A DNA stretch of 32,000 nt from Pseudoalteromonas tetraodonis (GTDB lineage Bacteria > Pseudomonadota > Gammaproteobacteria > Enterobacterales > Alteromonadaceae): assembly GCF_002310835.1 (NCBI RefSeq), contig NZ_CP011041.1:2340001-2372000 (forward strand), given 5' to 3'. The notes under the pieces were generated by a model. That model did not search any database, was not told the DNA's origin, and saw nothing but the letters and a program-made list of their open reading frames with translations. Each line of letters begins with the position of its first letter. Within the stretch, counting starts at the first letter, position 1. The position numbers and the translations under genes are program-made. This document shows, piece after piece, positions 7,042 to 20,474 of this stretch.

Positions 7042-7707
7042 CTAAGCACTTTTACTTAACGGTGTTCCACTGTGAAACTTAAAGTCTTCGTCATCAGATA
7101 AAATTAACTGTGCTTCTATTTCAGCAAATTCTTTTACCCGCTCGGTAATATCAAAATCAGCAATGTCTTGAGCAAGGGTTAAATAATCTTGGTAATGACG
7201 TGCCTCAGAGCGCAGCAATGAAATATAAAAATCCCCTAAGCGTTTATCTACATGGGGTGCAAGCTTGGCAAAGCGTTCACACGAGCGAGCTTCTATGTAA
7301 GCACCTACAATAAGCTTATCAACTAAGGCATTAGGCTCAAACGTTTTAACATTGCGTAGCATGCCTTTGGCATAACGACATGGCGTTATACTTTTATATT
7401 CAACACCGTATTCATCCATAATTTCGAGCACTTGATAGAAATGATGCAGCTCTTCTTTTATCAGCATTACCATTTTATCAATTAAATCTTGGCCATAAGG
7501 CGAGTTAGATTTAGGGATAATGGATTTAGTGAGTTTATTTTTAGCCGCTAAATCACGCCAATTTCCCTCACGTTTATAAATAAGCGTTTCAAACGGTTTA
7601 AGCCATTCAAGCAGTGCATCACTGCTCTCTTTATCTACCGCATACTTACGAATTAAAAACATGGCACTTTGCGCCGCTTTTAATTCATTAAATGTAAATA
7701 TGTGCAT
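7042..7707 (-). pseudogene. miaE: 3' part of the host miaE, cut off from its 5' end by the island; the apparent ATG at 7707 is island-derived
   Basis: The ORF reads MHIFTFNEL|KAAQSAMFLIRKY...EELHHF...EARSCERF...SEARHY (ferritin-like di-iron motifs). From K10 onward it is colinear with residues 48-257 of the intact paralogue at 18020..18793. The first 9 codons have no counterpart there and lie inside the island arm. Confidence 0.8.
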
Positions 7708-7714
7708 ATATAAA
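7701..7714. repeat. left terminal inverted repeat of the island (TGTGCATATATAAA)
   Basis: Exact reverse complement of 20487-20500. Confidence 0.8.
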
Positions 7715-7840
7715 TAGCAATATATTTATCAAGTAGTTAATGAAAAATTATGCTGGGATAGTTTTTATTTGCGAATAGAATTAAATTCATATTCGTACAG
7801 AGTAAGATAGAACGTAAACAATTTTGAAAGCGTGTGGAAT

Positions 7841-9262
7841 CTATCCAGTGTTCGCCTTAGTGAATTGATAAAAATGTTTTTTTAGTAATGATTTTGAAAT
7901 ATTGGTTTTAGATTGACCTAAACTGTTGCCTTTCAAACCCCTATAGTATTTATCTCTGACTTTATCAGAAACGACTATTTTCAAAGTCTGCGGCTCGATT
8001 GATATTAAAAACCTGTCAAATAGTCGATGTATATCGACTCTGAGACATAGTCCATTTTGCAACAGATTGGATTGTTCTCCTTTGTAAGGAATAATATGGG
8101 CAGCTTCTAACAAAGCCAGCTCAGCACATCCTGATACGGCACATTTTGAATAAAAGTTATCAAGAGTTAATGATCTAAATCCCTGCTGGCCAACCCTTGT
8201 AACTTGGCTCCTAGTGACTCTATCCCTGTTATCTTCTGTTAACGCATGTAGGCTCACTTGCTCTTTATCATCTATTTTTGTGTGAACATTTTCTGTTAAC
8301 TTATCAATATCTTCTTCATCAATGTCAAAATCTAAATCAAGAATTTGGGGGTGTTCTAAAAAGGCTTTCCAGTGTTTTTTCTGGCTATCAATTTTTGTAG
8401 ATTTTCTAATAATAGCTAATGCTTCACATGCCGCAGATATTGAAGAAAATGAGTAATTGCGCTCTTCCCATAATTTTAAAATACGCTTTAAAGGAAGCTG
8501 CACAACTTCAGATCTATTATATTTTTTTCTGTGAAACGGATTGATTGTGATTATCTGATCATTTTGAGGATTTTCTGCTAACTCAATATCCTTTAACTTT
8601 CTTTCAAATTCACTGATCAAATCATGATTTAAGTAGCTTTCCCAACCCTTATAGTTCTTAATATTACCATCATTAACATTCTTAATAGCCAATATTTCTG
8701 CCGCAGCTTCTTTTGTACCACATAACTTTAACCTGTGATGCCAAACTAACTCTACCTCCTCTAAAGTAAGCTCAGTTACATCTTCAGGGTCAAACACATA
8801 TAGGTGCAGTGGCAGGTTATGTTTTACTTGGGTAGCAGTAGTCTCTTTATTTGGCGTATCTATTGTTTCGTAAAGATCATTTGAGCTCATTGATAAAGCA
8901 AAATCATCATCGAGATCTAAATCATCATCTAAAGGTATTTCCGTACTCTGCTTTTCTAAAAGGTATCGCTCGACATTAAAAGATGGACCAGGATTAATTT
9001 TTCTTTTAGTTTTATTATTCTTTTTTCCTTTATGCTCGGCATAAGCCTGTTTAGCTTTATTAAAATCAACAATATTTAAAAACTTCTTGAAAGCACTAAA
9101 ATTTTCTTTATTTTCATAAGCTACTTTAAGAGCTTTCTTCTCACTTTTAGTTAACATGAATTCATGTTTCGCTAGTAGGTGAAATAAGTCGTTTATGCTT
9201 TTCCCTTTAGAATAATATTCAAAGATATCTTTTTTTATTCCAATAACAGTACGCTTCATCAT
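7841..9262 (-). CDS. orphan protein: tandem HTH-like modules + acidic linkers + C-terminal McrA/HNH_2-type nuclease domain
   Basis: 473 aa. C-terminus reads RVGQQGFRSLTLDNFYSKCAVSGCAELALLEAAHIIPY...LLQNGLCLRVDIHRLFDRFLISI. This is the pattern I know from ScoMcrA-like HNH_2 nucleases; putative triad H389/N403/H412. Residues ~155-213 and ~247-304 are an internal duplication. The gene is visibly more AT-rich than the adjacent hsd genes. Confidence 0.7.
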   Translation of the reverse strand: MMKRTVIGIKKDIFEYYSKGKSINDLFHLLAKHEFMLTKSEKKALKVAYENKENFSAFKKFLNIVDFNKAKQAYAEHKGKKNNKTKRKINPGPSFNVERYLLEKQSTEIPLDDDLDLDDDFALSMSSNDLYETIDTPNKETTATQVKHNLPLHLYVFDPEDVTELTLEEVELVWHHRLKLCGTKEAAAEILAIKNVNDGNIKNYKGWESYLNHDLISEFERKLKDIELAENPQNDQIITINPFHRKKYNRSEVVQLPLKRILKLWEERNYSFSSISAACEALAIIRKSTKIDSQKKHWKAFLEHPQILDLDFDIDEEDIDKLTENVHTKIDDKEQVSLHALTEDNRDRVTRSQVTRVGQQGFRSLTLDNFYSKCAVSGCAELALLEAAHIIPYKGEQSNLLQNGLCLRVDIHRLFDRFLISIEPQTLKIVVSDKVRDKYYRGLKGNSLGQSKTNISKSLLKKHFYQFTKANTG

Positions 9263-9328
9263 AATTCTCTAAATAGATCTATATTTTGATATTATCTACA
9301 TCTTTAATATAACTCGCGAAATTCCTAT

Positions 9329-11839
9329 TCACCTTGCATACAAATACTTCTGAAAACCTATAAACGTATCGCGTATCGCAGCTGGTGATCCAAACTCAAT
9401 AGCGGCGTCATTAATGGTGTTGTATTTAAGCTCTACTAAGCTACGCATTTTTTTAGGAGCCAGTTCTTGCACGCCGTCTTCAATGTATTTACTTAATATA
9501 AAGTTGATAAACTCTTGTTGTTTATAGTCAGTAAATGCAGAGTTTATTTTAGGCTTAGCTTGTTGAGCTCGTTCTGTGCGTGTTTGCGCTTCTGCGGCAT
9601 AGGCTACGTAGGATAAAACATCGTATACGTCGCTGTCTTGTGCATCAATTACGGCTTTCATACTATCGAGTTTTTCGCTATCGTAGCCCGCTTCGGTTAA
9701 GTCTTCTAATAGCTTTTCGCGAGTTGTTGGGTCACTCCATATTTCGCGTAGTTGGTCTTCGTTTTCAAAAAAGCGCGGTAGGTCGTCAAACATACGTTCA
9801 ACAAATTCTTTTGCTGTAATGGGCTTACCTTCTGCACTCCAGTACATTGCTGAGGAAATATGCTTAATTTGTCGTGTACGGCCGTCTGAGAGCTTTATTT
9901 CGAGCTTTTCACATACACATGGCCTTTCGCCACATTTTTCACAGCTTTCAGGCTCTGGCTTTTCACAAACACACGGCTTTTGTTCACACACCTTACACGG
10001 TTTCTTTTCACCGGCACCATCACCGCCAGTGTCTTCACATTGGCACGGGGTTGTGCCGCACTCTGGGCATACTTCGCTGGGTATTGGCTCACCATCCCAA
10101 GCTGGGTCAGCAAAGTTATGGTGCGCTTTTACAAAGTCGTAAATGGTAAAGTAGTCTTTGCCATCGTAAGTGCGGGTGCCTCGGCCAATGATCTGCTTAA
10201 ACTCAATCATATTATTACAAGGGCGCATGAGCACAATGTTACGTACATTACGTGCATCTACGCCTGTAGAGAGTTTGCGTGATGTGGTTAAAATTGTCGG
10301 AATCGTTTTTTCGTTATCACAAAAGGTTTTTAAATCGTTTTCACCCGCTACGCCATCGTTAGCGGTAACACGAACACAATAGTTAGTGTTGGTAGTCCAG
10401 CCCTTTTTAACTGCATACTGATTAATAAAATCGCGCACCATACCGGCATGAACTTGTGTAGCACAAAACACGATGGTTTTTTCTTTATGATTAAAACGAT
10501 CCATCCAATAGTGTACACGGCGCTCTTCGCGCTGAGGTATAGTAATAATGCGGTTAAAATCACCTTCTTTATACAGTTTACCGGGCTCAGGATCGCCTTT
10601 TACAATAACTCCATCACCCTTTATATAAGTGTACTCATCCATAGTGCCAACAATGGGTAGCACTTTAAATGGCGTTAAAAAGCCATCGTTAATGCCTTCT
10701 TTTAGGGTGTAGCTGTAAACGGGTTCGCCAAAGTAACCATAGGTATCAGCGTTATCGGTACGCTTTGGTGTGGCGGTTAAACCTAGCTGAACTGCTGGTT
10801 CAAAGTGTTTAAGAATATCACGCCAAGCACTTTCATCATTTGCGCCACCACGGTGACACTCATCAATAATAATTAAATCAAAAAAATCAGCTGGGTATTG
10901 CTCGTAATACGGATTTTCTGCCTTTTTGAGTGGCGCATTTTCATCTTCTTCTGTTGTGGCTTCTTTTAATTCGGTTTTAGGCCCACACATAAGGGTATGA
11001 AAAATTGTAAAAAACACACTGGCATTTTTTGGTACGCCGCCTCGTTTACGAATATCGTCAGGGGTGATACGTACAATGGCATCTTCACCAAATGAGCCAA
11101 AATCATTAAATGCCTGATTAGCTAAAATATTACGATCAGCCAAAAATAAAATACGCGGGCGCTTTTTAGCAAGCCTTATATCTTTCTGCGCGGTCAAACT
11201 CCAACGGGTTTGAAATAACTTCCATGCGGTTTGAAAGCCAATACAGGTTTTACCCGTACCGGTAGCCAGTGTAAGCAGTATGCGATTTTTGCCTTGAGCA
11301 ATAGCATCAAGGGCATTGTGAATGGCGTTTTCTTGATAATAACGGGGTGCCCAATCACCTTTAGCTTCAAAAGGGATGGTAGAAAACGCATCACGCCAAG
11401 CGGTTGTGTAATCCGCTTCTGGTTTATCACCTTGTTGTTCAAAGGTTAAATCCCATAGCGCTTGGGGAGACATATATTCATCTACCAGCGTCTCAATACC
11501 TGTGAGCATATCAATCTGGTAAATCTCATGGCCGTTGGTGGCATACGCAATACGGCATTGCAGACGCTTTGCGTAGTCTTTGGCTTGGCGCACACCTTCG
11601 CTGTAAGTCAGGCTTTCTTTTTTGGCTTCTACTGCGGCAAGCTTACGGCCTTTATATACCAACACATAATCGCAAGGCACTTTGTTAGCGCGTTTGCCAC
11701 CCGCCATAATTTGGCCTGGGCAAATAAGCTCGCGGCGAATAAAGCTGTTATCAACTTCACCCCAACCCGCAGCGACTAGTTTAGGGTCGATTAAATCCGC
11801 TCTGGTGTCGGCTTCGTTACGCGTCCTTGCTTGTGACAT
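9329..11839 (-). CDS. hsdR: type I restriction enzyme R subunit (EcoEI/EcoAI-like C-terminus) with a Cys-rich insert
   Basis: 836 aa. N-terminal PD-(D/E)xK-like CDYVL...AAVEAKK. SF2 helicase motifs LATGTGKT, IIIDECHRG, LGLTATP, QIIGRGTR. The C-terminal region resembles the EcoEI R C-terminal domain. Its ATG overlaps the hsdS stop (TAATG). Confidence 0.9.
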   Translation of the reverse strand: MSQARTRNEADTRADLIDPKLVAAGWGEVDNSFIRRELICPGQIMAGGKRANKVPCDYVLVYKGRKLAAVEAKKESLTYSEGVRQAKDYAKRLQCRIAYATNGHEIYQIDMLTGIETLVDEYMSPQALWDLTFEQQGDKPEADYTTAWRDAFSTIPFEAKGDWAPRYYQENAIHNALDAIAQGKNRILLTLATGTGKTCIGFQTAWKLFQTRWSLTAQKDIRLAKKRPRILFLADRNILANQAFNDFGSFGEDAIVRITPDDIRKRGGVPKNASVFFTIFHTLMCGPKTELKEATTEEDENAPLKKAENPYYEQYPADFFDLIIIDECHRGGANDESAWRDILKHFEPAVQLGLTATPKRTDNADTYGYFGEPVYSYTLKEGINDGFLTPFKVLPIVGTMDEYTYIKGDGVIVKGDPEPGKLYKEGDFNRIITIPQREERRVHYWMDRFNHKEKTIVFCATQVHAGMVRDFINQYAVKKGWTTNTNYCVRVTANDGVAGENDLKTFCDNEKTIPTILTTSRKLSTGVDARNVRNIVLMRPCNNMIEFKQIIGRGTRTYDGKDYFTIYDFVKAHHNFADPAWDGEPIPSEVCPECGTTPCQCEDTGGDGAGEKKPCKVCEQKPCVCEKPEPESCEKCGERPCVCEKLEIKLSDGRTRQIKHISSAMYWSAEGKPITAKEFVERMFDDLPRFFENEDQLREIWSDPTTREKLLEDLTEAGYDSEKLDSMKAVIDAQDSDVYDVLSYVAYAAEAQTRTERAQQAKPKINSAFTDYKQQEFINFILSKYIEDGVQELAPKKMRSLVELKYNTINDAAIEFGSPAAIRDTFIGFQKYLYAR

Positions 11840-13059
11840 TAGACCACAGCTCCTTCTTTTTCTTTCGTTAACTCACCTGAAAAGGCTTTTTGTAGAATAG
11901 ATTTTTTGAGTTCGTCTAAACTATCGAGCTTCTTTATGTAAATCCATTCCAGGTGGAAATACTGTTGCTTTAAAGATTTAAGAGCACGCACTATTTCTTC
12001 CTGCTGTTTTTGTGGAGCCAGCGGTGCAAGAAAAGATCTCATTGTTTTCAAAGATACATTCTTTATTGTTGCCCCAGTAGCTTCTCGTAAAGCATATTTT
12101 TGAAATAGAGGGCTCTCAATTACAAATTTTATATACTCTTTATTTACGTTTTCTTCTAAGTTGAAGTAGCAAGCACTTTTCCCAAGAATTACTTTTTCAT
12201 TGTTATAAAATGCTACATTACCAAGAGTTCCATTTATAGAAACAAAGACTGTTCGATCATTAAGAGGCTTTTTGTACTTATTATATTCTTCCCTAGAAAC
12301 TCTCTTGGTTTTTTCTTTAATCGTTATTTTTCCATCATCTAAATTATTACCATTGATAAAGAAATATTCACCCTCAGGATCGTACTTTGGTGTTCCGTGC
12401 AATCCATCTCCAAGTTTTGTCGTTATATCCGAAATTGGTGCTTCAACCCATCCCTCACCACTCTGGCTAAATACTTGCTGCAAGTAGCTTTCAAACAGCT
12501 CGCGGGCGTTTTTGAGGTTTTGCTCGGTCTTAGCGCGGGCTTGTTCTATATCAACAAAGGCTCGATCTAGAATGGCGACGATGCGTTTTTGTTCTTCTTC
12601 GCTAGGTGTCGGGACCATAATCTCTTTAAGAATTTTGACCGAAGCCATATTCTTAATCGCTGCCCCTTGTGATAACGACTCAATTTGCTCCTGAAAATTA
12701 CGGCTTTCCATCCAAAGCTTTAAAAATTGAGGTGACAAGTTTTTATTAGGCGTTAATTTGAGTAATGCTTGATTAATTATGCCTTGCTTAATTCCTGAAG
12801 GTACAATTGCAATCTTTCCCATAGTGCCAGAGCAACTCATAATCAAATCATTAGGGAAAAGTTCAAACCGTCCCATTTCTGAAAATTTATCTTCATCTAC
12901 AAAATATCTAACACTATCAAATTGGTTATAAATGGCATGTTGTTGCTCATAGACAGCATACCCGTCCTCTTTGAATATATTCTTTTTAAGAGCACCACCA
13001 AAAGGCCCCCTAACAAATTCACAGACATCACCAAAACGCTTAGTTTCCCAAGTCATCAC
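11839..13059 (-). CDS. hsdS: type I R-M specificity subunit with two target-recognition domains
   Basis: 406 aa with a bipartite TRD-conserved-TRD-conserved layout. The conserved helices are EEQKRIVAILDRAFVDIEQARAKTEQNLKNARELFESYLQ and QQEEIVRALKSLKQQ...LDELKKSILQKAF. The start is GTG 13059 or, more likely, ATG 13056 (TGATG overlap with the hsdM stop; GGAG 8 nt upstream). Confidence 0.9.
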   Translation of the reverse strand: MMTWETKRFGDVCEFVRGPFGGALKKNIFKEDGYAVYEQQHAIYNQFDSVRYFVDEDKFSEMGRFELFPNDLIMSCSGTMGKIAIVPSGIKQGIINQALLKLTPNKNLSPQFLKLWMESRNFQEQIESLSQGAAIKNMASVKILKEIMVPTPSEEEQKRIVAILDRAFVDIEQARAKTEQNLKNARELFESYLQQVFSQSGEGWVEAPISDITTKLGDGLHGTPKYDPEGEYFFINGNNLDDGKITIKEKTKRVSREEYNKYKKPLNDRTVFVSINGTLGNVAFYNNEKVILGKSACYFNLEENVNKEYIKFVIESPLFQKYALREATGATIKNVSLKTMRSFLAPLAPQKQQEEIVRALKSLKQQYFHLEWIYIKKLDSLDELKKSILQKAFSGELTKEKEGAVV

Positions 13060-14522
13060 AACAACTCCTGAATCTTACCCAGAATCGCTTCGCTCTCTTT
13101 ATCCAACGCGATGATTTCTTCAATGATGGCTTGCGGTTCACGCAGTGGGGCTTCTTCTGCTTGGTTCGGGTTTTTAACTGATAAATCCCATGTTGCATCA
13201 TTAAGCTCAGACGTTGCCAATAGCCAAGACTTAGCGCTGTCCTCAAAGCCTTTTTGTAGCTCTACAAATTCTTTTAAGTCTTTGTCGTTTAGCGGATTGG
13301 TTTTACCCAAGCTGCGGCCAGGGTCTAGCTGATAGAACCAAGTTTTCTGTGTCGGTTCGCCTTTGGTGAAAAACAACACCACGGTTTTAACCCCAGCACC
13401 TAAGAAGGTCTTTGCTGGGCAATCGAGTACGGTGTGTAAGTTGCAGTTTTCTAATAGCTCTTTGCGCAAGGCAATGGCGGCATTATCGGTATTCGATAAA
13501 AAAGTGTTTTTAATCACAATAGCGGCACGGCCACCAGGCTTTAGCATCTTGATAAAGTGTTGCAAAAACAAGAAGGCAGTTTCACCGGTTTTAATCGGGA
13601 AGTTTTGCTGAACTTCTTTGCGCTCTTTACCGCCAAATGGCGGGTTAGCCAATACAATATCGTGCTGGTTGCTTGGGGTAATGTCTTGTAGGTTTTCGCC
13701 CAGCGTATTGGTGTGAATAACGTTAGGTGCTTCGATGCCATGCAAAATCATGTTCATAATGGCGATAACGTACGCTAAAGACTTTTTCTCTTTGGCGTAA
13801 AAGGTGTGTTCTTGCAGGGTTTTTAAATCGCTGGTTGAAAGCTGCTTTTTGCTGGCACCACCTTGGCGAAGATAGTCGTAGGCTTCACACAAGAAGCCTG
13901 CCGACCCTGCTGCACCATCGTATATGGTTTCGCCAATTTGTGGCTGTAATACGTCTATCATGGCGCGGATTAATGGGCGTGGTGTGTAATATTCGCCACC
14001 GTTGCGACCAGCGTTGCCCATATTTTTAATTTTTACCTCGTACAGGTGTGAAAGCTCATGTTTTTCTTCTTGTGAGCGAAAACGTAATTCATCTACTTTC
14101 TCTAGCGCATCACGCAATGAATAACCACTTTGAATTTTGTTTTTGATCTCGCTAAATATCTCACCAATCTTGTATTCAATGGTGTCAGGGCCGTTGGCAC
14201 GTAGCTTAAAACCTTTAAGGTAAGGGAATAACTCACCATCAACAAAATCCATTAAATCGCTACCAGTTCGGGCTTTGTCGTGATCAAACTCACCATTAGC
14301 AGTTTTAGGTGCAGCCCACGAACTCCAGCGGAAGTCTACATCAATAATGTATTCGTAGTTTTCCGCCATCAATTCGGCTTCTTGAGACTTGGTAAACTCT
14401 AAGTCGTCAAGGTATTTTAAAAATAGCATCCACGACGATTGTTCGGTGTAGTCTAATTCACTAGAGCAACCTGAGTCTTTATGAAAAATGTCGTCGATGT
14501 TTTTAAAAGTTTGTTCAAACAT
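13056..14522 (-). CDS. hsdM: type I R-M N6-adenine DNA methyltransferase subunit
   Basis: 488 aa. HsdM N-terminal domain (LFLKYLDD). AdoMet motif I DGAAGSAGFL. Catalytic motif IV LANPPFGG. First gene of the M-S-R operon. Confidence 0.9.
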   Translation of the reverse strand: MFEQTFKNIDDIFHKDSGCSSELDYTEQSSWMLFLKYLDDLEFTKSQEAELMAENYEYIIDVDFRWSSWAAPKTANGEFDHDKARTGSDLMDFVDGELFPYLKGFKLRANGPDTIEYKIGEIFSEIKNKIQSGYSLRDALEKVDELRFRSQEEKHELSHLYEVKIKNMGNAGRNGGEYYTPRPLIRAMIDVLQPQIGETIYDGAAGSAGFLCEAYDYLRQGGASKKQLSTSDLKTLQEHTFYAKEKKSLAYVIAIMNMILHGIEAPNVIHTNTLGENLQDITPSNQHDIVLANPPFGGKERKEVQQNFPIKTGETAFLFLQHFIKMLKPGGRAAIVIKNTFLSNTDNAAIALRKELLENCNLHTVLDCPAKTFLGAGVKTVVLFFTKGEPTQKTWFYQLDPGRSLGKTNPLNDKDLKEFVELQKGFEDSAKSWLLATSELNDATWDLSVKNPNQAEEAPLREPQAIIEEIIALDKESEAILGKIQELL

Positions 14523-14934
14523 TATTGTTTTATCCCTGCATAGGCTGTAGAGCCTATTTAAATGTTTATATAATTATTTTAGCCACTTATTATTAGATGC
14601 GTTAAAAGCTTTAAGTGGTATTTATTATTCTCATCCATGCTTGAGCAACATAATCGATGGTTTTATTTTGCCCATCAACATTACCCAGTACATGACTGTA
14701 TTTCAAGCAGTTAAACCAAAAAGAAAAATTGCAATAAAAGCACTAAGTACGTTTGTTGTATTACGTCAATAAGCGAAGCTTTTATTGTTGTATGGATTAC
14801 ATTGGAAGTATAAAGGGAAAAACATTAACAAAGAAGTGCTGGGTTTGAATTGAAATACTTTAATATCCACTTCAACCAATAACTTATACTTTTTAATTCT
14901 TAACGCGAAGCACCTCATAAACTTGCTTGATTTG

Positions 14935-14972
14935 CTTTAGCGAACTTTATATTTTTAATATGTTCGCTAAAG
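14935..14972. repeat. 11-bp perfect inverted repeat (CTTTAGCGAAC / GTTCGCTAAAG) with a 16-nt AT loop
   Basis: Read directly from the sequence. It lies in the 540-bp non-coding gap between hsdM and the (MD)n gene. Confidence 0.6.
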
Positions 14973-15017
14973 TTGGTTTTATACAGCCCGCATTCAAAGC
15001 GAAGTAATTTGAGTGTA

Positions 15018-15054
15018 TTAATAACTGTAATTCAAAAAGAGTTACAGTTATTAA
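15018..15054. repeat. 13-bp perfect inverted repeat (TTAATAACTGTAA / TTACAGTTATTAA) with an 11-nt loop
   Basis: It starts 9 nt beyond the stop (15063-15065) of the minus-strand gene 15063..15821. No clear T run follows on the minus strand, so it may be a terminator-like hairpin or an operator. Confidence 0.5.
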
Positions 15055-15062
15055 CAACCTTA

Positions 15063-15821
15063 TTACGCCTTGTCTATGTGCTTTGCAACAGTTTGTCTAC
15101 TGAGACCTACAGCTTTAGAAATTGCCTTATAGGTCATGCTAGGAATCTCCTTTTTTAACAGGGCTGCATGCGTCTTAGGCTCACCCTGTTTTATCATTAG
15201 AAGACATGAGCTTTTACGGTTTAATTCCTCTTTGAGCTCTACATTTAACAAATGAAGACTTTCAAGATCTGCATCTTTTTGCGTAACCATAGCCAATAAT
15301 TGTAACCACTTTTTCAGTAGATTGAGAAATGAACGATAATCAGAACATGCCAGTAATCTTTGTTTACTGAATAAGCGGTTTTTTAACAAACCGATTAGAT
15401 GCGGGTTTGAGTCTGCCTCAAGCTTATGAAAAACCCTTGTAACCTGCTCATTTAAGGGGCTAAAGCGAATAACTTTATTACACCAGCTCTCATCCTGTTG
15501 AAACTCGTTTGCACAAGCCCGTAAAATCTTAGTTGCTGGCGCGGGTTCATTAAGGGCTAAGCTGATAAGGTAATAAAGCTGCTCATCACTTAGACTCTGA
15601 CGAGTTAAGCCTTCTTTATCCGCCTTTTCTTTTTGTAAAATGCGAATATTGGCTAAAACAGCTGCCCTTTGTTTTTTAAGGTTGTTCAGCTCAGTAAATT
15701 GTTTTTTTAGCTGCATATCATGGCTTATAATGGGTTCTTCCATATCCATATCCATATCCATATCCATATCCATATCCATATCCATATCCATATCCATATC
15801 CATATCCATATCCATATCCAT
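15063..15821 (-). CDS. hypothetical DNA-binding protein with an (Met-Asp)13 N-terminal repeat and a C-terminal HTH
   Basis: 252 aa. The C-terminus MTYKAISKAVGLSRQTVAKHIDKA looks like a resolvase/Hin-type HTH. The central part is helical and Leu-rich. The true start is ambiguous because every repeat unit supplies an in-frame ATG. Confidence 0.6.
   Translation of the reverse strand: MDMDMDMDMDMDMDMDMDMDMDMDMDMEEPIISHDMQLKKQFTELNNLKKQRAAVLANIRILQKEKADKEGLTRQSLSDEQLYYLISLALNEPAPATKILRACANEFQQDESWCNKVIRFSPLNEQVTRVFHKLEADSNPHLIGLLKNRLFSKQRLLACSDYRSFLNLLKKWLQLLAMVTQKDADLESLHLLNVELKEELNRKSSCLLMIKQGEPKTHAALLKKEIPSMTYKAISKAVGLSRQTVAKHIDKA
15741..15821 (-). repeat. hexanucleotide microsatellite (ATGGAT)13 + ATG at the 5' end of the gene
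   Basis: The plus strand shows CATATC x13 from 15741 to 15818, then CAT (15819-15821). An A7 run follows on the coding strand just upstream (15823-15829). Confidence 0.95.
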
Positions 15822-16051
15822 ATTTTTTTCCCATATTCCGTTATGACAAGTTAATATCTTAACATAAATGGCACGACTCGTTATTTTTACCCTTAAATTA
15901 ATTATTATTTATTAAGAAAATTATTTATTAACGCCTACAATCAACCATGAACAAATTAGATAAAAAATTAGCAATATTTATTTTTACCGATTGGCGTCGA
16001 GTTGCCCCAAATACGTTACGATAGTAATAATCAAAACAAGGAATAGAGTTT

Positions 16052-16516
16052 ATGAGTAACGTATATATTGAAATTGAATTCATCTCAATTGTTGAAAACC
16101 TAGATAATGTATTTTCAGTTAAAATTGATGACACCATTAGTCTTAATGTAACCCTAGAAAAGGAGAACTGCACGTTAAGCGTAGACTTAACAGTTATGGA
16201 ATCTAAGGAGTTTATCTTCGACGAAAATACAGGGGCTATAACAGGCGATGCAAGTTTGAAAGTCTTGCCTGTGTCCTTAGAAAAGGCAAAAGCTATCTTC
16301 TGGGAAGAAGAGTCCATATGGGGTTCTATTCGCCCCCGATCTTCGAAAGATATAATAGCTTTCGAGGCAAATGCTCATAAAAAGAAAATTAAATTTTCTA
16401 AAAGAGTCAGCCCATCAACTAAAGAAAACACACTAACAGATGAAAGCGAAACTGCTATAAAAGACGAGCATGAGGGGCTATTAGACTCAATGGGTGTTTG
16501 CCCAGAAAAATGTTAA
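16052..16516 (+). CDS. hypothetical acidic protein
   Basis: 154 aa. AGGAA lies ~10 nt upstream of the ATG. It is divergent from the (MD)n gene and sits directly upstream of the oriT-like region and the relaxase. I recognise no motif. Confidence 0.5.
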   Translation: MSNVYIEIEFISIVENLDNVFSVKIDDTISLNVTLEKENCTLSVDLTVMESKEFIFDENTGAITGDASLKVLPVSLEKAKAIFWEEESIWGSIRPRSSKDIIAFEANAHKKKIKFSKRVSPSTKENTLTDESETAIKDEHEGLLDSMGVCPEKC

Positions 16517-16531
16517 CCCACCGCGGAGCGA

Positions 16532-16627
16532 CATTTTGGCTGAGTTGCGTAGCGTTACTCTTGCCAAAATGTGGAGTGGGTGCACAATTTACAATTGTGT
16601 TCAAAGTTGTCTATAGACAACTTTGAA
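16532..16627 (+). promoter_or_regulatory. candidate oriT: three consecutive hairpins/palindromes upstream of the relaxase gene
   Basis: First, CATTTTGGC (16532-16540) pairs with GCCAAAATG (16563-16571), with flanking CCCAC/GTGGG. Second, CACAATT-TAC-AATTGTG spans 16583-16599. Third, a 28-bp perfect palindrome TTCAAAGTTGTCTATAGACAACTTTGAA spans 16600-16627. Confidence 0.5.
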
Positions 16628-16666
16628 GATGCATCCACATTTAAAAAAATGGCTAAGGATTAGGCA

Positions 16667-17464
16667 ATGATTGATACAAGCAACAATAAAGCTATCTTCA
16701 GGATAAAAAAAATTAATTTGCAAAGACAGTTACGTGCTGCCCTTGCTCATAATTTGCGACTGGTAAACCCTCCAAACGTAAACACTGAGCTATCTCATTA
16801 TAATATCCAAGCAAAAGGGTTAAACACTATTGAAGCCTGTATGAGTCGGTTTGAGAGTGCTTTAGAGGGTATAAAAGTGCGTAAGAATGCTGTACTAGCT
16901 CATGAAGCTATTATCACAGGCTCTCCAGATCATATGAATAAATTGACAAAAAAACAGCAAATAGCATATTTCACTGATGCTGCACACTGGCTAGTTAAAT
17001 TACATGGAGGAGATTACAAAAATATCCTTTGTTTATCAATACATTACGATGAATTAGGCGCACACGGTCACTATTTAATGGTACCCAAAATAGAATCAAA
17101 GTTAAATAGCCGAGCTATTATTGGTGGAGCTCGAGGCAGACTTAGCGAATTACAAACGGAGTTTTACGAAAAAGTGGCAAAAAAATACGGATTTACACGA
17201 GGTGTAAAAAATAGTAAAGCTACACACCAGCACTACAGTGAATTTAAAAACCTTAAAAACGACTTAAGTGAGGTAAAGAATAAATTGGAACAAACCAAAA
17301 TTGAGTACAAGACAGCCCTTAATAGACTCAGCTCTGCTCAGCAAAGCCTGTTATTTATAAAAAAGGAACTGAAACTAGCTAAAACTCTGGGGGTATCTGA
17401 CTTAAGAAGAAAAATCGCTCTTCTGGAAAAGAATACTATGTTTAAGGTAACCCCACGCATTTAG
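16667..17464 (+). CDS. MobV-family (Mob/Pre) relaxase
   Basis: 265 aa. It aligns by eye to pMV158 MobM motifs: AHNLR (HxxR), RKNAVLAHEAIITGS, and IHYDELGAHGHYLMVP (HxDE...HxH metal site). It continues with LNSRAII and KATHQHYSEFK, followed by a C-terminal coiled coil. Confidence 0.8.
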   Translation: MIDTSNNKAIFRIKKINLQRQLRAALAHNLRLVNPPNVNTELSHYNIQAKGLNTIEACMSRFESALEGIKVRKNAVLAHEAIITGSPDHMNKLTKKQQIAYFTDAAHWLVKLHGGDYKNILCLSIHYDELGAHGHYLMVPKIESKLNSRAIIGGARGRLSELQTEFYEKVAKKYGFTRGVKNSKATHQHYSEFKNLKNDLSEVKNKLEQTKIEYKTALNRLSSAQQSLLFIKKELKLAKTLGVSDLRRKIALLEKNTMFKVTPRI

Positions 17465-17633
17465 AGTTATTGCCTTAGCGATTAAATTAAATTTCATGAA
17501 GTAACTAAACAAATAAAAATTATTTAACCTCTCAGGTTCCGAGTTAAAAAAATCGGCTATAATCAGAGATTCAAACAATGGTGTTGTTTTAATAACACTT
17601 TTTTATCCGCTAAATGCTAAGGAAAGCAATTTA

Positions 17634-17873
17634 ATGAAGTTACATGTTACCCGCCAAGTCAAAGCTGTATTGGAAGAAGACAAGGGCTTAGATGAGCATT
17701 ATGTCACTGATAAGTTAAGCTACTTTGAAAAAGCTAAAACCAACCGCGAAGCACTTATGATTTCTAGCTTTTTAGATCGAGAGGGTCGAAAAATGCTTGC
17801 TAACCGCCTGAAAATGAACGAACGTGACTTAACGGGATTTTATCAAATAGTCGAACAATCTTATTGGTGGTAG
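17634..17873 (+). CDS. small hypothetical protein (79 aa)
   Basis: Good SD (AAGGAAAG, 7-8 nt upstream of the ATG). A TATAAT at 17558-17563 lies upstream. A strong terminator follows. No recognisable motif. Confidence 0.5.
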   Translation: MKLHVTRQVKAVLEEDKGLDEHYVTDKLSYFEKAKTNREALMISSFLDREGRKMLANRLKMNERDLTGFYQIVEQSYWW

Positions 17874-17913
17874 AGTAATCGGAGACTTACTACTATAGAT
17901 TAATTATTTTATT

Positions 17914-17944
17914 AAACATGGGCTTATAAACCCATGTTTTTTTT
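17914..17944 (+). terminator. rho-independent terminator
   Basis: AAACATGGG (17914-17922) pairs with CCCATGTTT (17931-17939) across an 8-nt loop, followed by T8. Confidence 0.8.
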
Positions 17945-18019
17945 ATTAATAAGATACAACTCTTAATGAAAGCTTTCTTAAACTTAGATGGTGAAACGCT
18001 AACTTCGCAAGTTAAACCA

Positions 18020-18793
18020 TTATGAAAGTGTAGGCACCCCACTATGAAACTTGAAGTCTTTATCTGGTGATAAAATTAGCTCAGCTTCTATGCCACCAAA
18101 AAATTTGATTCGCTCGGTAATATCAAAATCAGCAATGTCTTGAGCAAGGAGCAAGTAATCTTGATAATGACGCGCTTCTGAACGCAATAACGATATGTAA
18201 AAGTCACCTAAGCGTTTATCTACATGCGGTGCCAGTTTTGCAAAACGCTCACATGAGCGTGCCTCAATATAAGCACCAATAATGAGTTTATCGACTAAAG
18301 CATCTGGCTCATACGATTTGACATGGCGTAACATGCCTTTAGCATAACGACATGGAGTGATGCTTCTATATTCAACACCATATTCATCCATAATTTCGAG
18401 TACTTGATAAAAGTGATGTAGCTCTTCTTTTATTAGCATCACCATTTTATTAATTAAGTCTTGGCCATAGAGAGTATCTGATTTTGGGATCATCGACTTA
18501 GACAATTTATTCTTATCGCTAAGGTCGCGCCAGTCCCCTTCTCTTTTGTATATCAGAGATTCAAAAGGTTTTAACCACTCGAGTAACGCATCACCACTAT
18601 CTTTATCAACGGCATACTTACGAATTAAAAACATTGCTGATTGAGCTGCTTTTAATTCACACACGAGGTGATCTAAAAGTACTATGTCGAGATTCTCATG
18701 TTTTTTTGCTTTTTCAACCCATTTCTTAGGTGTATTACACTGCAAGAAACTATTTATTGGTTCTAAGAGTTTATTAATTTCATTTGAGTTCAT
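18020..18793 (-). CDS. miaE: tRNA-(ms2io6A37)-hydroxylase, island-borne intact copy
   Basis: 257 aa with ferritin-like di-iron motifs: CELKAAQSA, KEELHHF, EARSCERF, RSEARHY. Its ATG lies 2 nt after the recombinase stop (TAG-TA-ATG). Confidence 0.8.
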   Translation of the reverse strand: MNSNEINKLLEPINSFLQCNTPKKWVEKAKKHENLDIVLLDHLVCELKAAQSAMFLIRKYAVDKDSGDALLEWLKPFESLIYKREGDWRDLSDKNKLSKSMIPKSDTLYGQDLINKMVMLIKEELHHFYQVLEIMDEYGVEYRSITPCRYAKGMLRHVKSYEPDALVDKLIIGAYIEARSCERFAKLAPHVDKRLGDFYISLLRSEARHYQDYLLLAQDIADFDITERIKFFGGIEAELILSPDKDFKFHSGVPTLS

Positions 18794-18795
18794 TA

Positions 18796-20469
18796 CTAAT
18801 CATCTTTTAATAATATATCTAAATAGCCACTTTCTGAATGTATCTTAAGGTAATACATGAGGCGAGCTGCATTTTCAACAGTAGATCCCCTGCTTTTGTG
18901 GGGGTACATTAACCTATCGATATCCCAATCAGATGTGCGCACCTCAGTGACATATTCACTTTCTCTATAATACTCTTTTGAACCATAAAAAACACATTGG
19001 TAGGCTTTACGTTTTCGATCATATTGGCTAAATTTGAACCTAGCTACAACGTCATCCTCTTCTAAGCTAAAAGATAATTCCTTGTTTTTTAAAATTATCT
19101 TATTGCCTATCCGATTTAATTCGAGATTATAATTTAAAGGGTCGGTTTGTGATAAATCGACTATTTTTTTAGATATTGAAGCTACATTAAGTTTTGTTTC
19201 AATTTCGGCTTGTATTTCAGCTAGCTGACTAACAATATCATTTATTTCATCATCTAATTCTTCCATCAAACCAAATATTGTTCCTGATTTTTTTTCACTA
19301 TTTTTATAATAATCTTTCAGGTCAGCCAATTTTGTTTGAAGCCCTTTTAATTCATAAGTTAGTTTCGCTTTTTTCTCATGACTGGTAGAGCTTCGTTTTG
19401 CACCACTAATTTTAGCAAGTATCAAGGGCTCAACATAAGCAAAAAAGAAATGATAAGCTACAACATAAGGAAATGTTGTCGGTGCATCACAACTTTCTCC
19501 CCCCGATCTCTGTTTTCTACTACAGCGAAGCAACGGTAATGACTCTGCTGATTGTTGAATACTCATACCTGAACCACAATGCCCACACTTAACCAAGCCA
19601 TGTAAGGGCCACTTCCTGTCAGGTCTAACGCTCGTAAACAGTCGTTCTTTACATATCCGCTGAGAATTATAAAAATCTTTATCACTTACAACCGATTCGT
19701 AAAGCTTCTCATTGTAAACTAAACCTATGCACTTAGGGTTTTGAATTATTCTGATAATTTTTGTCGGATTGATATTTTTCAGTGGCTTTATTTTACCGTA
19801 TTTTTTTCTCAGTGCTCTTTCAATCAAAACTTGACCAAGTCCTTCAGCATGCAATTTAAAAATATCTCGCACTACATCCGCGTATTCATTTAACTTGCCT
19901 TTTTGGTCTAGCCAAAAAGGCATCCGCATCTTAGGGGGGATTTTATTTTCTTTGGCGTTATACTCTCGTCGACTCCAAGAGCTTTTTACTTTTTCTGAAC
20001 GCCATTTAGAATCTGAATGAGCCTTATCAATCTCAACAATTAAACGCATACGTGTTGCTAAGTCATTACGCTTACTTGGGGAGTAAACACTTTGGTCTCT
20101 TGCTGTGACAATAGAAACGTCATGATCCCAAATTTTATCAAGCAACTTCTCCGTTTCAGTAATCGTCATTCGAGACAATCTAGAAAAATGCTCAACAAGA
20201 ATAATCGAGCCTTTAGGAACTACCTTTGACTCTATTGCAGCAACAAGCCTCCCCAAAGATCCCGAACTTAAATGCTTGCCCGAAAATGCTGATACACCAG
20301 CATCAATGAGAGGCTTACCTTCAAGCTCAACCACAACGCAGTTCGGGTGACTACGTAACCACTCTCTTTGTGCCTCCCCTTGTCTATACAAAGAGCTGTT
20401 CCCTTCTTGTGCTTGAGAACTAAAGCGCTGGTATAAATATACGTTACCAGATAATTTATCGTCTGACAT
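18796..20469 (-). CDS. large serine recombinase (integrase)
   Basis: 557 aa. Catalytic N-domain: YLYQRFSSQAQ (R-x-S-S-x-x-Q), DAGVSAFSG, LVEHFSRLSR. Recombinase domain, then zinc ribbon CGHCGS...LRCSRKQRSGGESC, then a long coiled coil (LKGLQTKLADLKDYY...LAEIQAEIETKL). Confidence 0.85.
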   Translation of the reverse strand: MSDDKLSGNVYLYQRFSSQAQEGNSSLYRQGEAQREWLRSHPNCVVVELEGKPLIDAGVSAFSGKHLSSGSLGRLVAAIESKVVPKGSIILVEHFSRLSRMTITETEKLLDKIWDHDVSIVTARDQSVYSPSKRNDLATRMRLIVEIDKAHSDSKWRSEKVKSSWSRREYNAKENKIPPKMRMPFWLDQKGKLNEYADVVRDIFKLHAEGLGQVLIERALRKKYGKIKPLKNINPTKIIRIIQNPKCIGLVYNEKLYESVVSDKDFYNSQRICKERLFTSVRPDRKWPLHGLVKCGHCGSGMSIQQSAESLPLLRCSRKQRSGGESCDAPTTFPYVVAYHFFFAYVEPLILAKISGAKRSSTSHEKKAKLTYELKGLQTKLADLKDYYKNSEKKSGTIFGLMEELDDEINDIVSQLAEIQAEIETKLNVASISKKIVDLSQTDPLNYNLELNRIGNKIILKNKELSFSLEEDDVVARFKFSQYDRKRKAYQCVFYGSKEYYRESEYVTEVRTSDWDIDRLMYPHKSRGSTVENAARLMYYLKIHSESGYLDILLKDD

Positions 20470-20474
20470 AGCAA

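What the first reader, a model, noticed from the sequence alone, without database searches (positions are those of the whole stretch)
7841..9262. Orphan HTH-repeat + McrA-type HNH nuclease appended to the type I R-M operon: candidate new restriction/defence effector
The last ~120 aa carry an HNH_2/McrA-like signature: CAVSGC...LLEAAHIIPY...NGLCLRVDIHRLFDRFLISI. I know this pattern from modification-dependent type IV enzymes such as ScoMcrA. The other ~350 aa match nothing I recognise. They contain a clear internal duplication. Residues ~155-213 read LTLEEVELVWHHRLKLCGTKEAAAEILAIKN...WESYLNH. Residues ~247-304 read LPLKRILKLWEERNYSFSSISAACEALAIIRK...WKAFLEH. A weaker third copy lies near the N-terminus (KSINDLFHLLAKH). 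Each copy looks like a helix-turn-helix, and poly-acidic linkers separate them (DDDLDLDDD, DLDFDIDEEDID). The gene lies 66 nt downstream of hsdR on the same strand but is visibly more AT-rich, which suggests separate acquisition. The sensor part does not resemble the SRA, SBD or DUF-type readers of known HNH type IV enzymes. The recognised DNA feature is therefore open.
Basis: partly seen in the sequence, partly recalled or inferred. Interest (0 to 1): 0.7.

Follow-up and report, generated by a model that had tools for sequence, protein, structure and literature searches.

The report
Novel tandem-repeat HNH nuclease beside restriction genes
This gene encodes a DNA-cutting enzyme (HNH type) fused to a duplicated, previously undescribed helical domain; it belongs to a rare family that repeatedly sits next to type I restriction genes or in other defence islands on mobile DNA, so it is probably an uncharacterised anti-phage or anti-plasmid nuclease whose trigger is unknown.

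Summary
The ORF is real: 7841-9262 on the minus strand, 473 aa. The C-terminus is an intact HNH_2 nuclease whose closest folds are the modification-dependent enzymes VcaM4I, TagI and EcoKMcrA. The claimed internal duplication is real. The "third N-terminal copy" is not, and "helix-turn-helix" is unsupported.

The repeats (R1, R2) are all-alpha domains of about 70 aa. They match nothing in Pfam, PDB sequences, PDB folds or viral folds. R1 is strongly acidic and almost as conserved as the catalytic core.

The module is rare: 65 clusters among 1.84 billion representative proteins. It always lies directly N-terminal to HNH_2 and was not found in phages.

The gene is not an orphan add-on. Relatives lie directly next to hsdR in three unrelated type I R-M lineages. 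Others sit beside Gabija-like and NACHT genes, in Tn7-like elements, or on megaplasmids without hsd genes. In the window it is the last cargo gene of a 12.8-kb serine-recombinase island inserted in miaE.

Best reading (confidence about 0.45): an autonomous, type IV-like defence nuclease with a new sensor or regulatory module. Main rival: an infection-triggered guard nuclease, like PrrC in logic. I rate it a new variant of a known kind, interest about 0.55.

The parts
7841..9262 (-). RR-HNH gene (473 aa): basic N-terminal domain, acidic linker, R1, R2, acidic linker, HNH_2
   Evidence: ORF. Family alignments. AlphaFold2 domain map.
8948..9262 (-). aa 1-105: basic helical N-terminal domain (pI 10), found only in the Pseudoalteromonas clade. 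Other clades have a short K/R-rich tail instead.
   Evidence: pLDDT 85-92. No Pfam match. It is not a third repeat.
8819..8947 (-). aa 106-148: acidic linker 1 (DDDLDLDDD), predicted disordered
   Evidence: pLDDT below 50. Family median net charge -6. At most 12% identity across the family.
8579..8815 (-). aa 150-228: repeat R1, an all-alpha domain. It is strongly acidic. Invariant residues are D161, W174, C181, E185, A188, E189 and G206.
   Evidence: Identity between clades is 43%.
8330..8536 (-). aa 243-311: repeat R2, an all-alpha domain homologous to R1. Invariant residues are W265, R268, A278 and R286. This is the copy also found in the single-R and dsRBD-containing architectures.
8228..8329 (-). 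aa 312-345: acidic linker 2 (DLDFDIDEEDID), predicted disordered
   Evidence: (family median net charge -7).
7928..8227 (-). aa 346-445: HNH_2 nuclease module, comprising the R-x-GQ-x-x-FR helix and the beta-beta-alpha-metal core. Catalytic residues are H389, N403 and H412. The Pfam hit covers aa 374-423, which is nt 7994-8143.
9263..9328 (-). 66-nt hsdR-to-HNH spacer. The scan found no terminator-like hairpin and no promoter-like site. A purine-rich AGAGAA lies upstream of the ATG. Co-transcription with hsdR is plausible.
9329..11839 (-). hsdR (836 aa; ResIII/DEAD/Helicase_C plus EcoEI_R_C). The PD-(D/E)xK motif D57...E71-A-K73 is intact.
   Evidence: The motif was read from the sequence.
11839..13059 (-). 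hsdS (406 aa, Methylase_S). It is swapped relative to near-identical islands, at only 34-35% identity.
13056..14522 (-). hsdM (488 aa; HsdM_N plus N6_Mtase)
7691..20510 (-). About 12.8-kb integrative mobilizable island inserted in miaE. Gene order: large serine recombinase, replacement miaE, Mob_Pre relaxase, two unknown ORFs, hsdM, hsdS, hsdR, RR-HNH. RR-HNH is the last cargo gene, 150 nt from the island end.

Best explanation
The gene encodes an autonomous single-polypeptide defence DNase, which I call 'RR-HNH'. It is carried as cargo on mobile elements. Its catalytic end is an active HNH_2 beta-beta-alpha-metal nuclease of the clade used by modification-dependent (type IV) restriction enzymes. 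It probably works as a dimer, like its solved relatives.

Its specificity or activation is set by a new N-terminal module. This module consists of two homologous all-alpha domains of about 70 aa (R1, R2), tethered by disordered poly-acidic linkers.

The most likely mode is type IV-like. The enzyme has no methyltransferase of its own, spares host DNA, and cuts invading DNA that carries a feature the host lacks. That feature is most plausibly a modified or hypermodified base other than the m6A written by the neighbouring type I methylase. This would cover phages that escape the co-located type I R-M system.

Within this model, the basic parts (N-terminal tail or domain, R2 in some members, HNH) contact DNA. 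The highly acidic but highly conserved R1 more likely gates or regulates the nuclease than reads DNA.

Shown computationally: the domain anatomy, the intact catalytic residues, the duplication, the lack of any homologue for R, the rarity of the module, and the genomic associations.

Inferred: nuclease activity, a defence role, dependence on modification, and the division of labour among the domains.
For: - The HNH_2 domain is above the Pfam threshold, and H389, N403 and H412 are invariant in 48 homologues.
- The only solved relatives are modification-dependent enzymes. By sequence this is VcaM4I 6yex. By fold these are VcaM4I and TagI at probability 1.00, with EcoKMcrA much weaker at E=0.77.
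- PADLOC restriction-type HNH models hit the C-terminus.
- The protein has no methyltransferase of its own and no conserved partner. It stands alone on Pseudomonas megaplasmids pQBR103 and pKF715B and on a Halomonas plasmid.
- It recurs in defence and mobile-element contexts:
  - Window and L081/L102: hsdMSR followed by RR-HNH.
  - Halomonadaceae: hsdM-hsdS-(GIY-YIG/DUF4357)-RR-HNH-hsdR, in Chromohalobacter, in Halomonas (two loci in one genome) and in Vreelandella.
  - L106/L107: hsdM-hsdS-x-hsdR (HindI-like), then a 20-nt gap, then RR-HNH.
  - P0041: type I R-M plus Mrr within 4-10 kb.
  - Gabija-like, Septu-like and NACHT neighbours.
  - Tn7-like cargo.
- There is a published precedent for a type IV system embedded in a type I operon to cover modified phages: TgvAB in VPI-2 (PMC11411939).
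- There is a precedent for an all-helical modification sensor fused to a nuclease: the END nucleases (PMC12191111).
- R1 and R2 are under purifying selection, at 43% and 33% identity between clades against 15% or less for the linkers.
Against: - No known modified-base reader fold (SRA, PUA/EVE, SBD, NEco, wH, iEndoIII) is detectable in the N-terminal 350 aa.
- R1 has a median net charge of -10.5, ranging from -14 to -5, which is atypical for a DNA-binding domain.
- The poly-acidic linkers and the alternating basic and acidic blocks fit autoinhibition or protein sensing at least as well.
- The gene is always immediately adjacent to hsdR in the three operonic lineages. That could point to functional coupling rather than simple co-location.
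- A distant branch fuses the same R+HNH_2 unit to a dsRNA-binding motif. That would not be expected for a modified-DNA reader.
- No experiment exists for any family member, as far as the searched literature shows.
Confidence: 0.45

Rival explanations
1. RR-HNH is an infection-triggered guard or abortive-infection nuclease, like PrrC in logic. The acidic R1-R2 module keeps the HNH domain off, either by intramolecular DNA mimicry or by docking to a partner. It releases the nuclease when a phage factor binds. Such a factor could be an anti-restriction DNA mimic or a basic DNA-binding protein aimed at the type I enzyme. The nuclease then degrades DNA indiscriminately.
For: - In Halomonadaceae the gene sits between hsdS and hsdR, which is where prrC lies in the prrA(hsdM)-prrB(hsdS)-prrC-prrD(hsdR) locus (established knowledge).
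- It is directly adjacent to hsdR in three unrelated type I lineages.
- R1 is strongly acidic yet the best-conserved non-catalytic part, with invariant D161, E185 and E189.
- The linkers are disordered and acidic, next to a basic HNH domain (net +7).
- No DNA-reader fold was found.
Against: - Many family members have no hsd genes within 10 kb. These include Pseudomonas chromosomes and megaplasmids and the contexts of P0008, P0009, P0012, P0019 and P0045. The trigger therefore cannot be specific to a type I complex.
- The R profile shows no similarity to HsdR, HsdM or HsdS.
- AlphaFold2 gave no confident inter-domain packing. pTM is 0.32 for the full protein and 0.48 for R1-R2.
- No fold similarity to colicin immunity proteins or to known DNA mimics was detected.
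Confidence: 0.25
2. RR-HNH is an accessory subunit of the type I R-M machine. It docks to HsdR or to the M2S core through R1-R2 and supplies an additional or alternative cleavage activity at stalled translocation complexes.
For: - The gene is immediately next to hsdR with gaps of 15-66 nt and no terminator, in three independent type I lineages.
- Expression is probably coupled to hsdR.
Against: - HsdR here keeps its own PD-(D/E)xK motif, D57...E71-A-K73 (read from the sequence). The L106 HsdR matches the full HSDR_N profile. No nuclease is therefore missing.
- Family members occur without any hsd genes.
- The three HsdR families are too divergent (22% identity) for one conserved docking surface.
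- In L104 a 1.6-kb insertion separates hsdR from the gene.
Confidence: 0.1
3. The gene has a non-defence role on mobile elements. It could be a selfish or addiction nuclease, a weapon in competition between mobile elements, or a DNA-processing enzyme for plasmid or transposon biology.
For: - All well-resolved contexts are mobile or accessory regions: a serine-recombinase island, Tn7-like elements, integrase islands and megaplasmids.
- Some neighbours are toxin-antitoxin genes, namely RES-Xre and HigB-like.
Against: - No immunity or antitoxin gene is consistently adjacent.
- The gene is not in phages, introns or inteins.
- It is not positioned with transposase or relaxase genes in a conserved way.
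- The repeated co-location with R-M, Gabija-like and NACHT genes is typical of defence cargo.
Confidence: 0.1

Closest known systems
Modular HNH type IV (modification-dependent) restriction endonucleases: VcaM4I (EVE-HNH, PDB 6yex), TagI (6ghs), EcoKMcrA (6ghc), ScoMcrA
   Same: - The C-terminal HNH_2 beta-beta-alpha-metal domain with the R-x-GQ-x-x-FR lead-in helix and the H-N-H residues.
- A single polypeptide with an N-terminal accessory module followed by a C-terminal HNH.
- No methyltransferase of its own.
- A defence-island location.
   Different: - The N-terminal module is unrelated to EVE/PUA, SRA, SBD or NEco.
- It is a tandem duplication of an all-alpha domain. One copy is strongly acidic, and long poly-acidic disordered linkers join the domains.
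- The NCBIfam PT-DNA_restrict model scores 30.5 bits against a cutoff of 180.
TgvAB, a GmrSD-like type IV system embedded in the VPI-2 type I R-M operon (PMC11411939)
   Same: - A nuclease gene without a methylase, placed inside or at the end of a type I hsd operon.
- The proposed logic of complementary cover for modified phages.
   Different: - TgvAB is a two-protein DUF262/DUF1524 system, whereas RR-HNH is a single HNH_2 protein.
- There is no sequence relationship.
- RR-HNH also occurs away from hsd operons.
PrrC / RloC anticodon nucleases embedded in hsd operons
   Same: - The genomic position between hsdS and hsdR in the Halomonadaceae operons.
- The idea of a latent nuclease linked to a type I system.
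   Different: - PrrC is an ABC-ATPase fused to an RNase that acts on tRNA-Lys. RR-HNH has no ATPase and carries a DNase-type HNH domain.
- RR-HNH is not restricted to hsd loci.
wH-HNH / PUA-wH-HNH m6A-dependent enzymes such as HhiV4I (PMC11037411)
   Same: Small N-terminal reader-type domains fused to HNH, forming stand-alone type IV systems.
   Different: - The R domains are predicted all-alpha with no beta wing (56 H / 2 E and 41 H / 2 E residues), and no wH family matches.
- Targeting m6A in general would conflict with the adjacent type I m6A methylase (inference).
END nucleases: PLD nuclease plus inactive EndoIII sensor (PMC12191111)
   Same: A modular design with an all-helical sensor fused to a nuclease, acting on hypermodified phage DNA.
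   Different: - The nuclease superfamily differs (PLD against HNH).
- The domain order differs.
- Foldseek found no EndoIII/HhH-GPD similarity for R1-R2.

Membership tests
HNH_2 (PF13391) His-Me finger nucleases | Profile score above the Pfam gathering threshold | tested here: met
   53.2 bits against a cutoff of 21, E=2.7e-14, aa 374-423.
HNH_2 (PF13391) His-Me finger nucleases | Catalytic H...N...H residues and a beta-beta-alpha-metal fold | tested here: met
   H389, N403 and H412 are invariant in 48 sequences. The AlphaFold2 HNH region has pLDDT around 90 and superposes on VcaM4I and TagI at probability 1.00, rmsd 3.3-4.7 A.
Type IV modification-dependent restriction enzymes (McrA/VcaM4I/ScoMcrA type) | A recognisable modified-base reader domain (SRA, PUA/EVE, SBD, NEco, wH, DUF3427) | tested here: not met
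   No Pfam hit at E<=10 on aa 149-312 or on either repeat alone, and only a sub-threshold chance hit (E=0.065) on aa 1-105. No PDB profile hit. No Foldseek hit with E<1 in PDB or BFVD.
Type IV modification-dependent restriction enzymes (McrA/VcaM4I/ScoMcrA type) | A nuclease without a cognate methyltransferase | tested here: met
   The gene stands alone on plasmids and in Tn7-like cargo with no adjacent methyltransferase. Where hsdM is adjacent, it belongs to a complete type I system.
Type IV modification-dependent restriction enzymes (McrA/VcaM4I/ScoMcrA type) | Cleavage that depends on a DNA modification | not testable with these tools
   This needs in vitro digestion of modified against unmodified substrates, or plaque assays.
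PT-DNA-binding restriction endonuclease (NCBIfam NF045808, ScoMcrA/SprMcrA-like) | Whole-protein score above the curated cutoff, which implies the sulfur-binding domain is present | tested here: not met
   30.5 bits against a cutoff of 180. Only the HNH part aligns, aa 320-438.
Winged-helix-HNH m6A readers (HhiV4I type) | A winged-helix domain: a three-helix bundle with a beta-hairpin wing | tested here: not met
   DSSP on the models gives R1 56 H / 2 E and R2 41 H / 2 E residues. No wH or HTH Pfam family matched.
PrrC/RloC-type hsd-embedded abortive-infection nucleases | An ABC-ATPase domain plus an anticodon-nuclease domain | tested here: not met
   The only family hit is HNH_2, with no ATPase.
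PrrC/RloC-type hsd-embedded abortive-infection nucleases | Location within or adjacent to a type I hsd operon | tested here: inconclusive
   Met in three or four lineages but absent in others.
Homing or phage-terminase-associated HNH endonucleases | Encoded in phage genomes, introns or inteins; PF01844-type HNH | tested here: not met
   No match for the R module in 50,697 phage records or in a pattern-seeded scan of 2.9 million viral contigs. No PF01844 hit.

The most novel reading that the evidence does not exclude
R1-R2 is not a DNA-modification reader. It is a new kind of switch: an acidic, DNA-mimic-like or protein-sensing tandem module. It holds the HNH DNase inactive and fires it when a phage counter-defence factor appears, such as an anti-restriction protein aimed at type I enzymes. 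RR-HNH would then be a DNase 'guard' that backs up type I R-M. This is PrrC-like logic in a new protein, using DNA rather than tRNA cleavage.
Probability: 0.2. Interest if true: 0.8.

Novelty: new variant of a known kind. Interest (0 to 1): 0.55.

Why it matters
If this is a defence nuclease, RR-HNH adds a new sensor or regulatory domain to the modular toolkit of restriction-type enzymes. Public annotation calls these proteins only "HNH endonuclease".

Its repeated, independent placement directly beside hsdR of three unrelated type I systems makes a question testable. Are such embedded nucleases simply complementary, covering modified DNA? Or are they wired to the state of the type I enzyme as guards against anti-restriction?

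A reader for a new DNA feature would be useful as a reagent, as MspJI, AbaSI and END-type enzymes have been. An autoinhibited DNase switched on by a phage factor would be a compact single-gene abortive-infection system.

The family is small and confined to Gammaproteobacteria among the members that could be assigned to a taxon. Its ecological weight is therefore modest.

Tried and rejected
- **Third N-terminal repeat.** Rejected by shuffle statistics and by hhalign of the R profiles against aa 1-110 (probability <=0.4%).
- **R as a known HTH, wH, SAP or HhH domain.**
  - Pfam at E<=10 found nothing on R1, R2 or R1-R2.
  - A PDB profile search gave only a chance hit to an ABC-F protein (E=0.82).
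  - Foldseek against PDB gave a best E of 2.6.
  - Foldseek against BFVD gave a best E of 1.5. A few SAP or Rho-N-like hits appeared at E of 3-10 and probability below 0.1, which is not evidence.
- **R related to HsdR, HsdM, HsdS, the DUF4357 protein or island ORFs.** hhalign probabilities were all 1.9% or less.
- **DUF4357 protein as an obligate partner.** Rejected. It is present only in the Halomonadaceae operon lineage. It is itself a separate GIY-YIG plus DUF4357/RAMA-like nuclease.
- **Small upstream ORFs (119-123 aa) in Pseudoalteromonas contexts as partners.** They are not homologous to each other and have no family.
- **HNH as a replacement for a dead HsdR nuclease.** Rejected, because the HsdR PD-(D/E)xK motif is intact.
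- **Already-named defence system.**
  - PADLOC 2.0 gives only generic HNH models on the C-terminus.
  - The HEC candidates, TgvAB, END nucleases, wH-HNH enzymes and the His-Me classification do not describe it.
- **Genome-contig scan.** It was seeded on HNH motifs and swamped by generic HNH_2 proteins. Only about 10 of its 80 loci carried the R module.
- **RNA genes.** Rfam and tRNA scans of the window found nothing.
Full report
**Observation**

The window has a 473-aa ORF at 7841..9262 on the minus strand. It lies 66 nt downstream of an 836-aa hsdR (9329..11839). Upstream of that are hsdS (11839..13059) and hsdM (13056..14522), all on the same strand.

Pfam HNH_2 (PF13391) matches aa 374-423 with E=2.7e-14, 53 bits against a cutoff of 21. 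PADLOC's restriction-type HNH models match aa 314-438.

The internal duplication is real. Residues ~150-220 align with ~241-311 at a Smith-Waterman score of 74. Two thousand shuffles gave 24.9 +/- 4.5 and none reached 74. Family profiles of the two halves align with hhalign probability 99.4%, E=6.5e-22.

The proposed third N-terminal copy is not supported. It scores 28 against a shuffle mean of 25, and hhalign gives <=0.4%.

The gene is AT-richer (33.2% GC) than hsdR (43.7%) and hsdM (43.4%). However, it is close to the flanking chromosomal genes (35.6-37.7%), so hsdR and hsdM are the compositional outliers.

**Anatomy**

AlphaFold2 with a 48-sequence family alignment gave four confident domains separated by disordered segments:
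- aa 1-85: a helical, basic N-terminal domain (the wider aa 1-105 block has pI about 10).
- aa 150-228: R1.
- aa 245-310: R2.
- aa 360-473: HNH.

A second model of R1-R2 alone reached pLDDT 88.7. Both repeats are essentially all-alpha: 56 H / 2 E residues and 41 H / 2 E residues.

Charge is blocked along the chain and this holds across the family. Median net charges are:

| Region | Median net charge |
|---|---|
| N-terminus | +8 |
| Linker 1 | -6 |
| R1 | -10.5 (range -14 to -5) |
| R2 | -1 |
| Linker 2 | -7 |
| HNH | +7 |

Identity between the two main clades is as follows:

| Region | Identity between clades |
|---|---|
| HNH core | 53% |
| R1 | 43% |
| R2 | 33% |
| Linkers | 15% or less |

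R1 is therefore strongly constrained. Invariant residues include D161, W174, C181, E185, A188, E189 and G206 in R1, and W265, R268, A278 and R286 in R2. In the nuclease they include R356, G358, Q359, F362, R363, H389, N403, D410, H412 and D416.

**What the parts resemble**

The HNH domain's only solved relatives are modification-dependent restriction enzymes.
- By sequence, the single hit is VcaM4I (6yex, E=0.0027).
- By Foldseek, VcaM4I and TagI match at probability 1.00. EcoKMcrA is much weaker, at E=0.77.
- The NCBIfam phosphorothioate-DNA restriction model matches only the HNH part and falls far below its cutoff, at 30.5 against 180 bits.

The repeats match nothing.
- Pfam at E<=10 gave no hit.
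- A profile search of PDB sequences gave no meaningful hit.
- Foldseek gave no hit below E=1 in PDB or in the viral BFVD library.
- hhalign found no similarity to the Hsd subunits or to neighbouring proteins.

The helix-turn-helix and winged-helix ideas are therefore unsupported. R is an undescribed small helical domain.

**Family and architectures**

A word-indexed search found full-length relatives in Pseudoalteromonas at 55-99% identity. It found relatives covering about 70% of the query in Halomonas, Vreelandella and Chromohalobacter at 35-40% identity. Sources name them only "HNH endonuclease" or "hypothetical protein". The window's 90% cluster includes P. tetraodonis WP_096038626.1.

An exhaustive profile search with the repeat-only alignment found just 65 clusters at E<=1e-3 among 1.84 billion representative proteins. 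Three architectures emerged:
- N-tail-R1-R2-HNH_2, which is this family.
- Single R-HNH_2 proteins of about 300 aa, in Nitrincola, Thalassolituus and Oceanospirillaceae.
- Long proteins of 640-940 aa with a dsRNA-binding motif, one with a weak RNase III-like N-terminus, followed by R-like domains and HNH_2. One is from Pseudomonas laurentiana.

In every HNH_2-bearing hit examined, the R domain lies directly upstream of HNH_2. R plus acidic linker plus HNH_2 is therefore a conserved unit, and R1 is a duplicate added to it.

The module is absent from 50,697 phage records. A pattern-seeded scan of 2.9 million viral contigs also found none. It is present on seven plasmids, including pQBR103 and pKF715B.

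**Genomic context**

In the window the gene is cargo on a mobile island. The host miaE is split. Its 5' fragment lies at ~20633-20511, and its 3' fragment is the 221-aa ORF at 7042-7707. Between them sits an island of about 12.8 kb that encodes:
- a large serine recombinase (18796-20469);
- a full-length replacement miaE (18020-18793, 87% identical to the host fragment);
- a Mob_Pre relaxase;
- two unknown ORFs;
- hsdMSR;
- RR-HNH, as the last gene.

The reading frame breaks exactly at ...CEL|KAAQ..., and the island ends carry imperfect inverted repeats.

Contexts of relatives:
- Near-identical islands keep hsdM, hsdR and RR-HNH at 95-99% identity but have swapped hsdS, at 34-35%.
- In Halomonadaceae the gene is embedded as hsdM-hsdS-(GIY-YIG/DUF4357)-RR-HNH-hsdR. 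Gaps are 15-18 nt. One genome has two such loci, and some operons carry extra embedded Abi_2 or Schlafen/AlbA genes.
- In L106/L107 (59% identity) the order is hsdM-hsdS-unknown-hsdR (HindI-like), then a 20-nt gap, then RR-HNH. This lies inside a Tn7-like element.
- P0041 has type I R-M plus Mrr 4-10 kb away.
- P0008 has Gabija-like and Septu-like genes and Tn7-like genes.
- P0045 has Gabija-like genes and a NACHT protein.
- P0009 and P0012 are Tn7-like or integrase cargo.
- Pseudomonas chromosomes and megaplasmids and a Halomonas plasmid carry the gene alone, sometimes near toxin-antitoxin genes.

The three operonic HsdR proteins are only about 22% identical to each other and have different Pfam architectures: EcoEI_R_C, T1R_D3-like, and T1RH-like_C. 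The link to type I R-M therefore arose independently at least three times, each time directly beside hsdR. It is not obligatory.

**Mechanism**

I commit to an autonomous, type IV-like defence DNase, at confidence about 0.45.
- Shown: an intact HNH_2 catalytic unit of the clade used by modification-dependent enzymes; no methylase or partner of its own; cargo status in defence islands and mobile elements.
- Inferred: the enzyme spares host DNA and cuts invading DNA that carries a feature the host lacks. It thereby complements type I R-M, as shown experimentally for the unrelated TgvAB system embedded in the VPI-2 type I operon (PMC11411939).
- Because it coexists with type I m6A methylases, m6A in general is an unlikely target (inference).
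- The acidity of R1 argues that R1 is not the DNA-contacting element. I assign DNA contact to the basic N-terminus, R2 and HNH, and a gating role to R1.

The main rival, at about 0.25, is an infection-triggered guard or abortive-infection nuclease. In it the acidic R module autoinhibits HNH until a phage factor binds. This fits the charge pattern, the strong conservation of R1 and the prrC-like position. It cannot depend on a type I complex, because many members lack hsd genes.

An accessory-subunit model (about 0.1) is weakened by the intact HsdR PD-(D/E)xK motif (D57...E71-A-K73), by members that lack hsd genes, and by the divergence of the HsdR partners. A non-defence mobile-element role (about 0.1) is not excluded.

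**Comparison and novelty**

The protein is a member of HNH_2; the threshold, motif and fold tests were all met. It works like the modular HNH type IV enzymes. It fails the membership test for a recognisable reader domain, and modification dependence is untested, so I do not file it as a McrA-type enzyme.

It is not any of the following:
- a wH-HNH enzyme (PMC11037411);
- an END nuclease (PMC12191111);
- a GmrSD/TgvAB-type system;
- a PrrC/RloC nuclease;
- one of the HEC embedded candidates.

The His-Me classification lists HNH_2 groups but does not describe this module. I rate it a new variant of a known kind: a known nuclease with a new, duplicated N-terminal domain and a notable recurrent linkage to hsdR.

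Interest is 0.55. It is a concrete, testable candidate defence protein with an undescribed domain. It belongs to a small family largely confined to Gammaproteobacteria, and it rests so far on association and homology alone.

Noticed in passing
window 7691-20510 (junctions near 7691-7715 and 20486-20510): A 12.8-kb integrative mobilizable island is inserted at about codon 46 of miaE. It carries a large serine recombinase (18796-20469) and its own full-length miaE (18020-18793). That copy replaces the disrupted host gene, whose fragments lie at 20633-20511 and 7707-7042. The island also carries a Mob_Pre relaxase (16667-17464, + strand). Its ends bear imperfect inverted repeats, AATGTGTGCATATATAAAT and ATTTATATATGCACATATT.
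   Followed up: yes
P0156, P0158, P0159, P0161, P0163, P0168, P0172 (protein ids; L094 for P0159): A distant branch of long proteins (about 710-940 aa) combines a dsRNA-binding motif (PF00035), R-like domain(s) and, in six of the seven, a C-terminal HNH_2. P0156 also has a weak RNase III-like N-terminus. One is Pseudomonas laurentiana WP_319527635.1, annotated 'putative dsRNA-binding protein'. A dsRBD fused to a restriction-type HNH is unusual. No genomic context could be obtained.
   Followed up: partly
L085 9050-9982 (also L090, L091 and L092 at about 9047-9985): A 310-aa nuclease with a weak GIY-YIG match and a DUF4357/RAMA-like domain is co-embedded immediately upstream of RR-HNH in the Halomonadaceae type I operons. 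These hsd operons therefore carry two extra nucleases, plus Abi_2 or Schlafen/AlbA genes in some.
   Followed up: partly
window 11839-13059, compared with L081 6195-7424 and L102 2729-3940: hsdS is only 34-35% identical between otherwise 95-99% identical islands. This indicates a wholesale swap of the specificity subunit within one island type.
   Followed up: partly
L106 4884-6233: A 449-aa gene with no Pfam match is embedded between hsdS and hsdR of a HindI-like type I system, which also carries RR-HNH. It is another candidate embedded defence gene.
   Followed up: no
L081 11815-12744: The 99%-identical island in another assembly has an extra 309-aa gene between RR-HNH and the island end. 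The window lacks it. It has only weak TPR hits and no family.
   Followed up: no
L104 1236-2918: In an 88%-identical variant, a 1.6-kb insertion with three small ORFs of unknown function separates hsdR from RR-HNH. A VapE-like gene follows. The junction between hsdR and HNH is therefore a site of gene turnover.
   Followed up: no
window 15063-15821 and 15928-16317 (minus strand): Two island ORFs (252 aa, with a weak C-terminal HTH match, and 129 aa) lie between hsdM and the relaxase. Neither belongs to a family in Pfam, NCBIfam or PADLOC. They may be island regulators or replication factors.
   Followed up: no
L082 4486-9545: The Gabija-like and Septu-like genes next to the Pseudoalteromonas sp. 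SaAl2 homologue appear fragmented, with AAA_15/SMC_N pieces of 104 and 54 aa. This suggests decaying defence genes in that Tn7-like element.
   Followed up: no
window 27810-31940 (minus strand): A 1376-aa ORF has an acidic repetitive region (a spurious PARP-like hit at aa 898-949) and a C-terminal TPR. It lies in the chromosomal purF-cvpA-dedD-folC-accD-truA neighbourhood.
   Followed up: no
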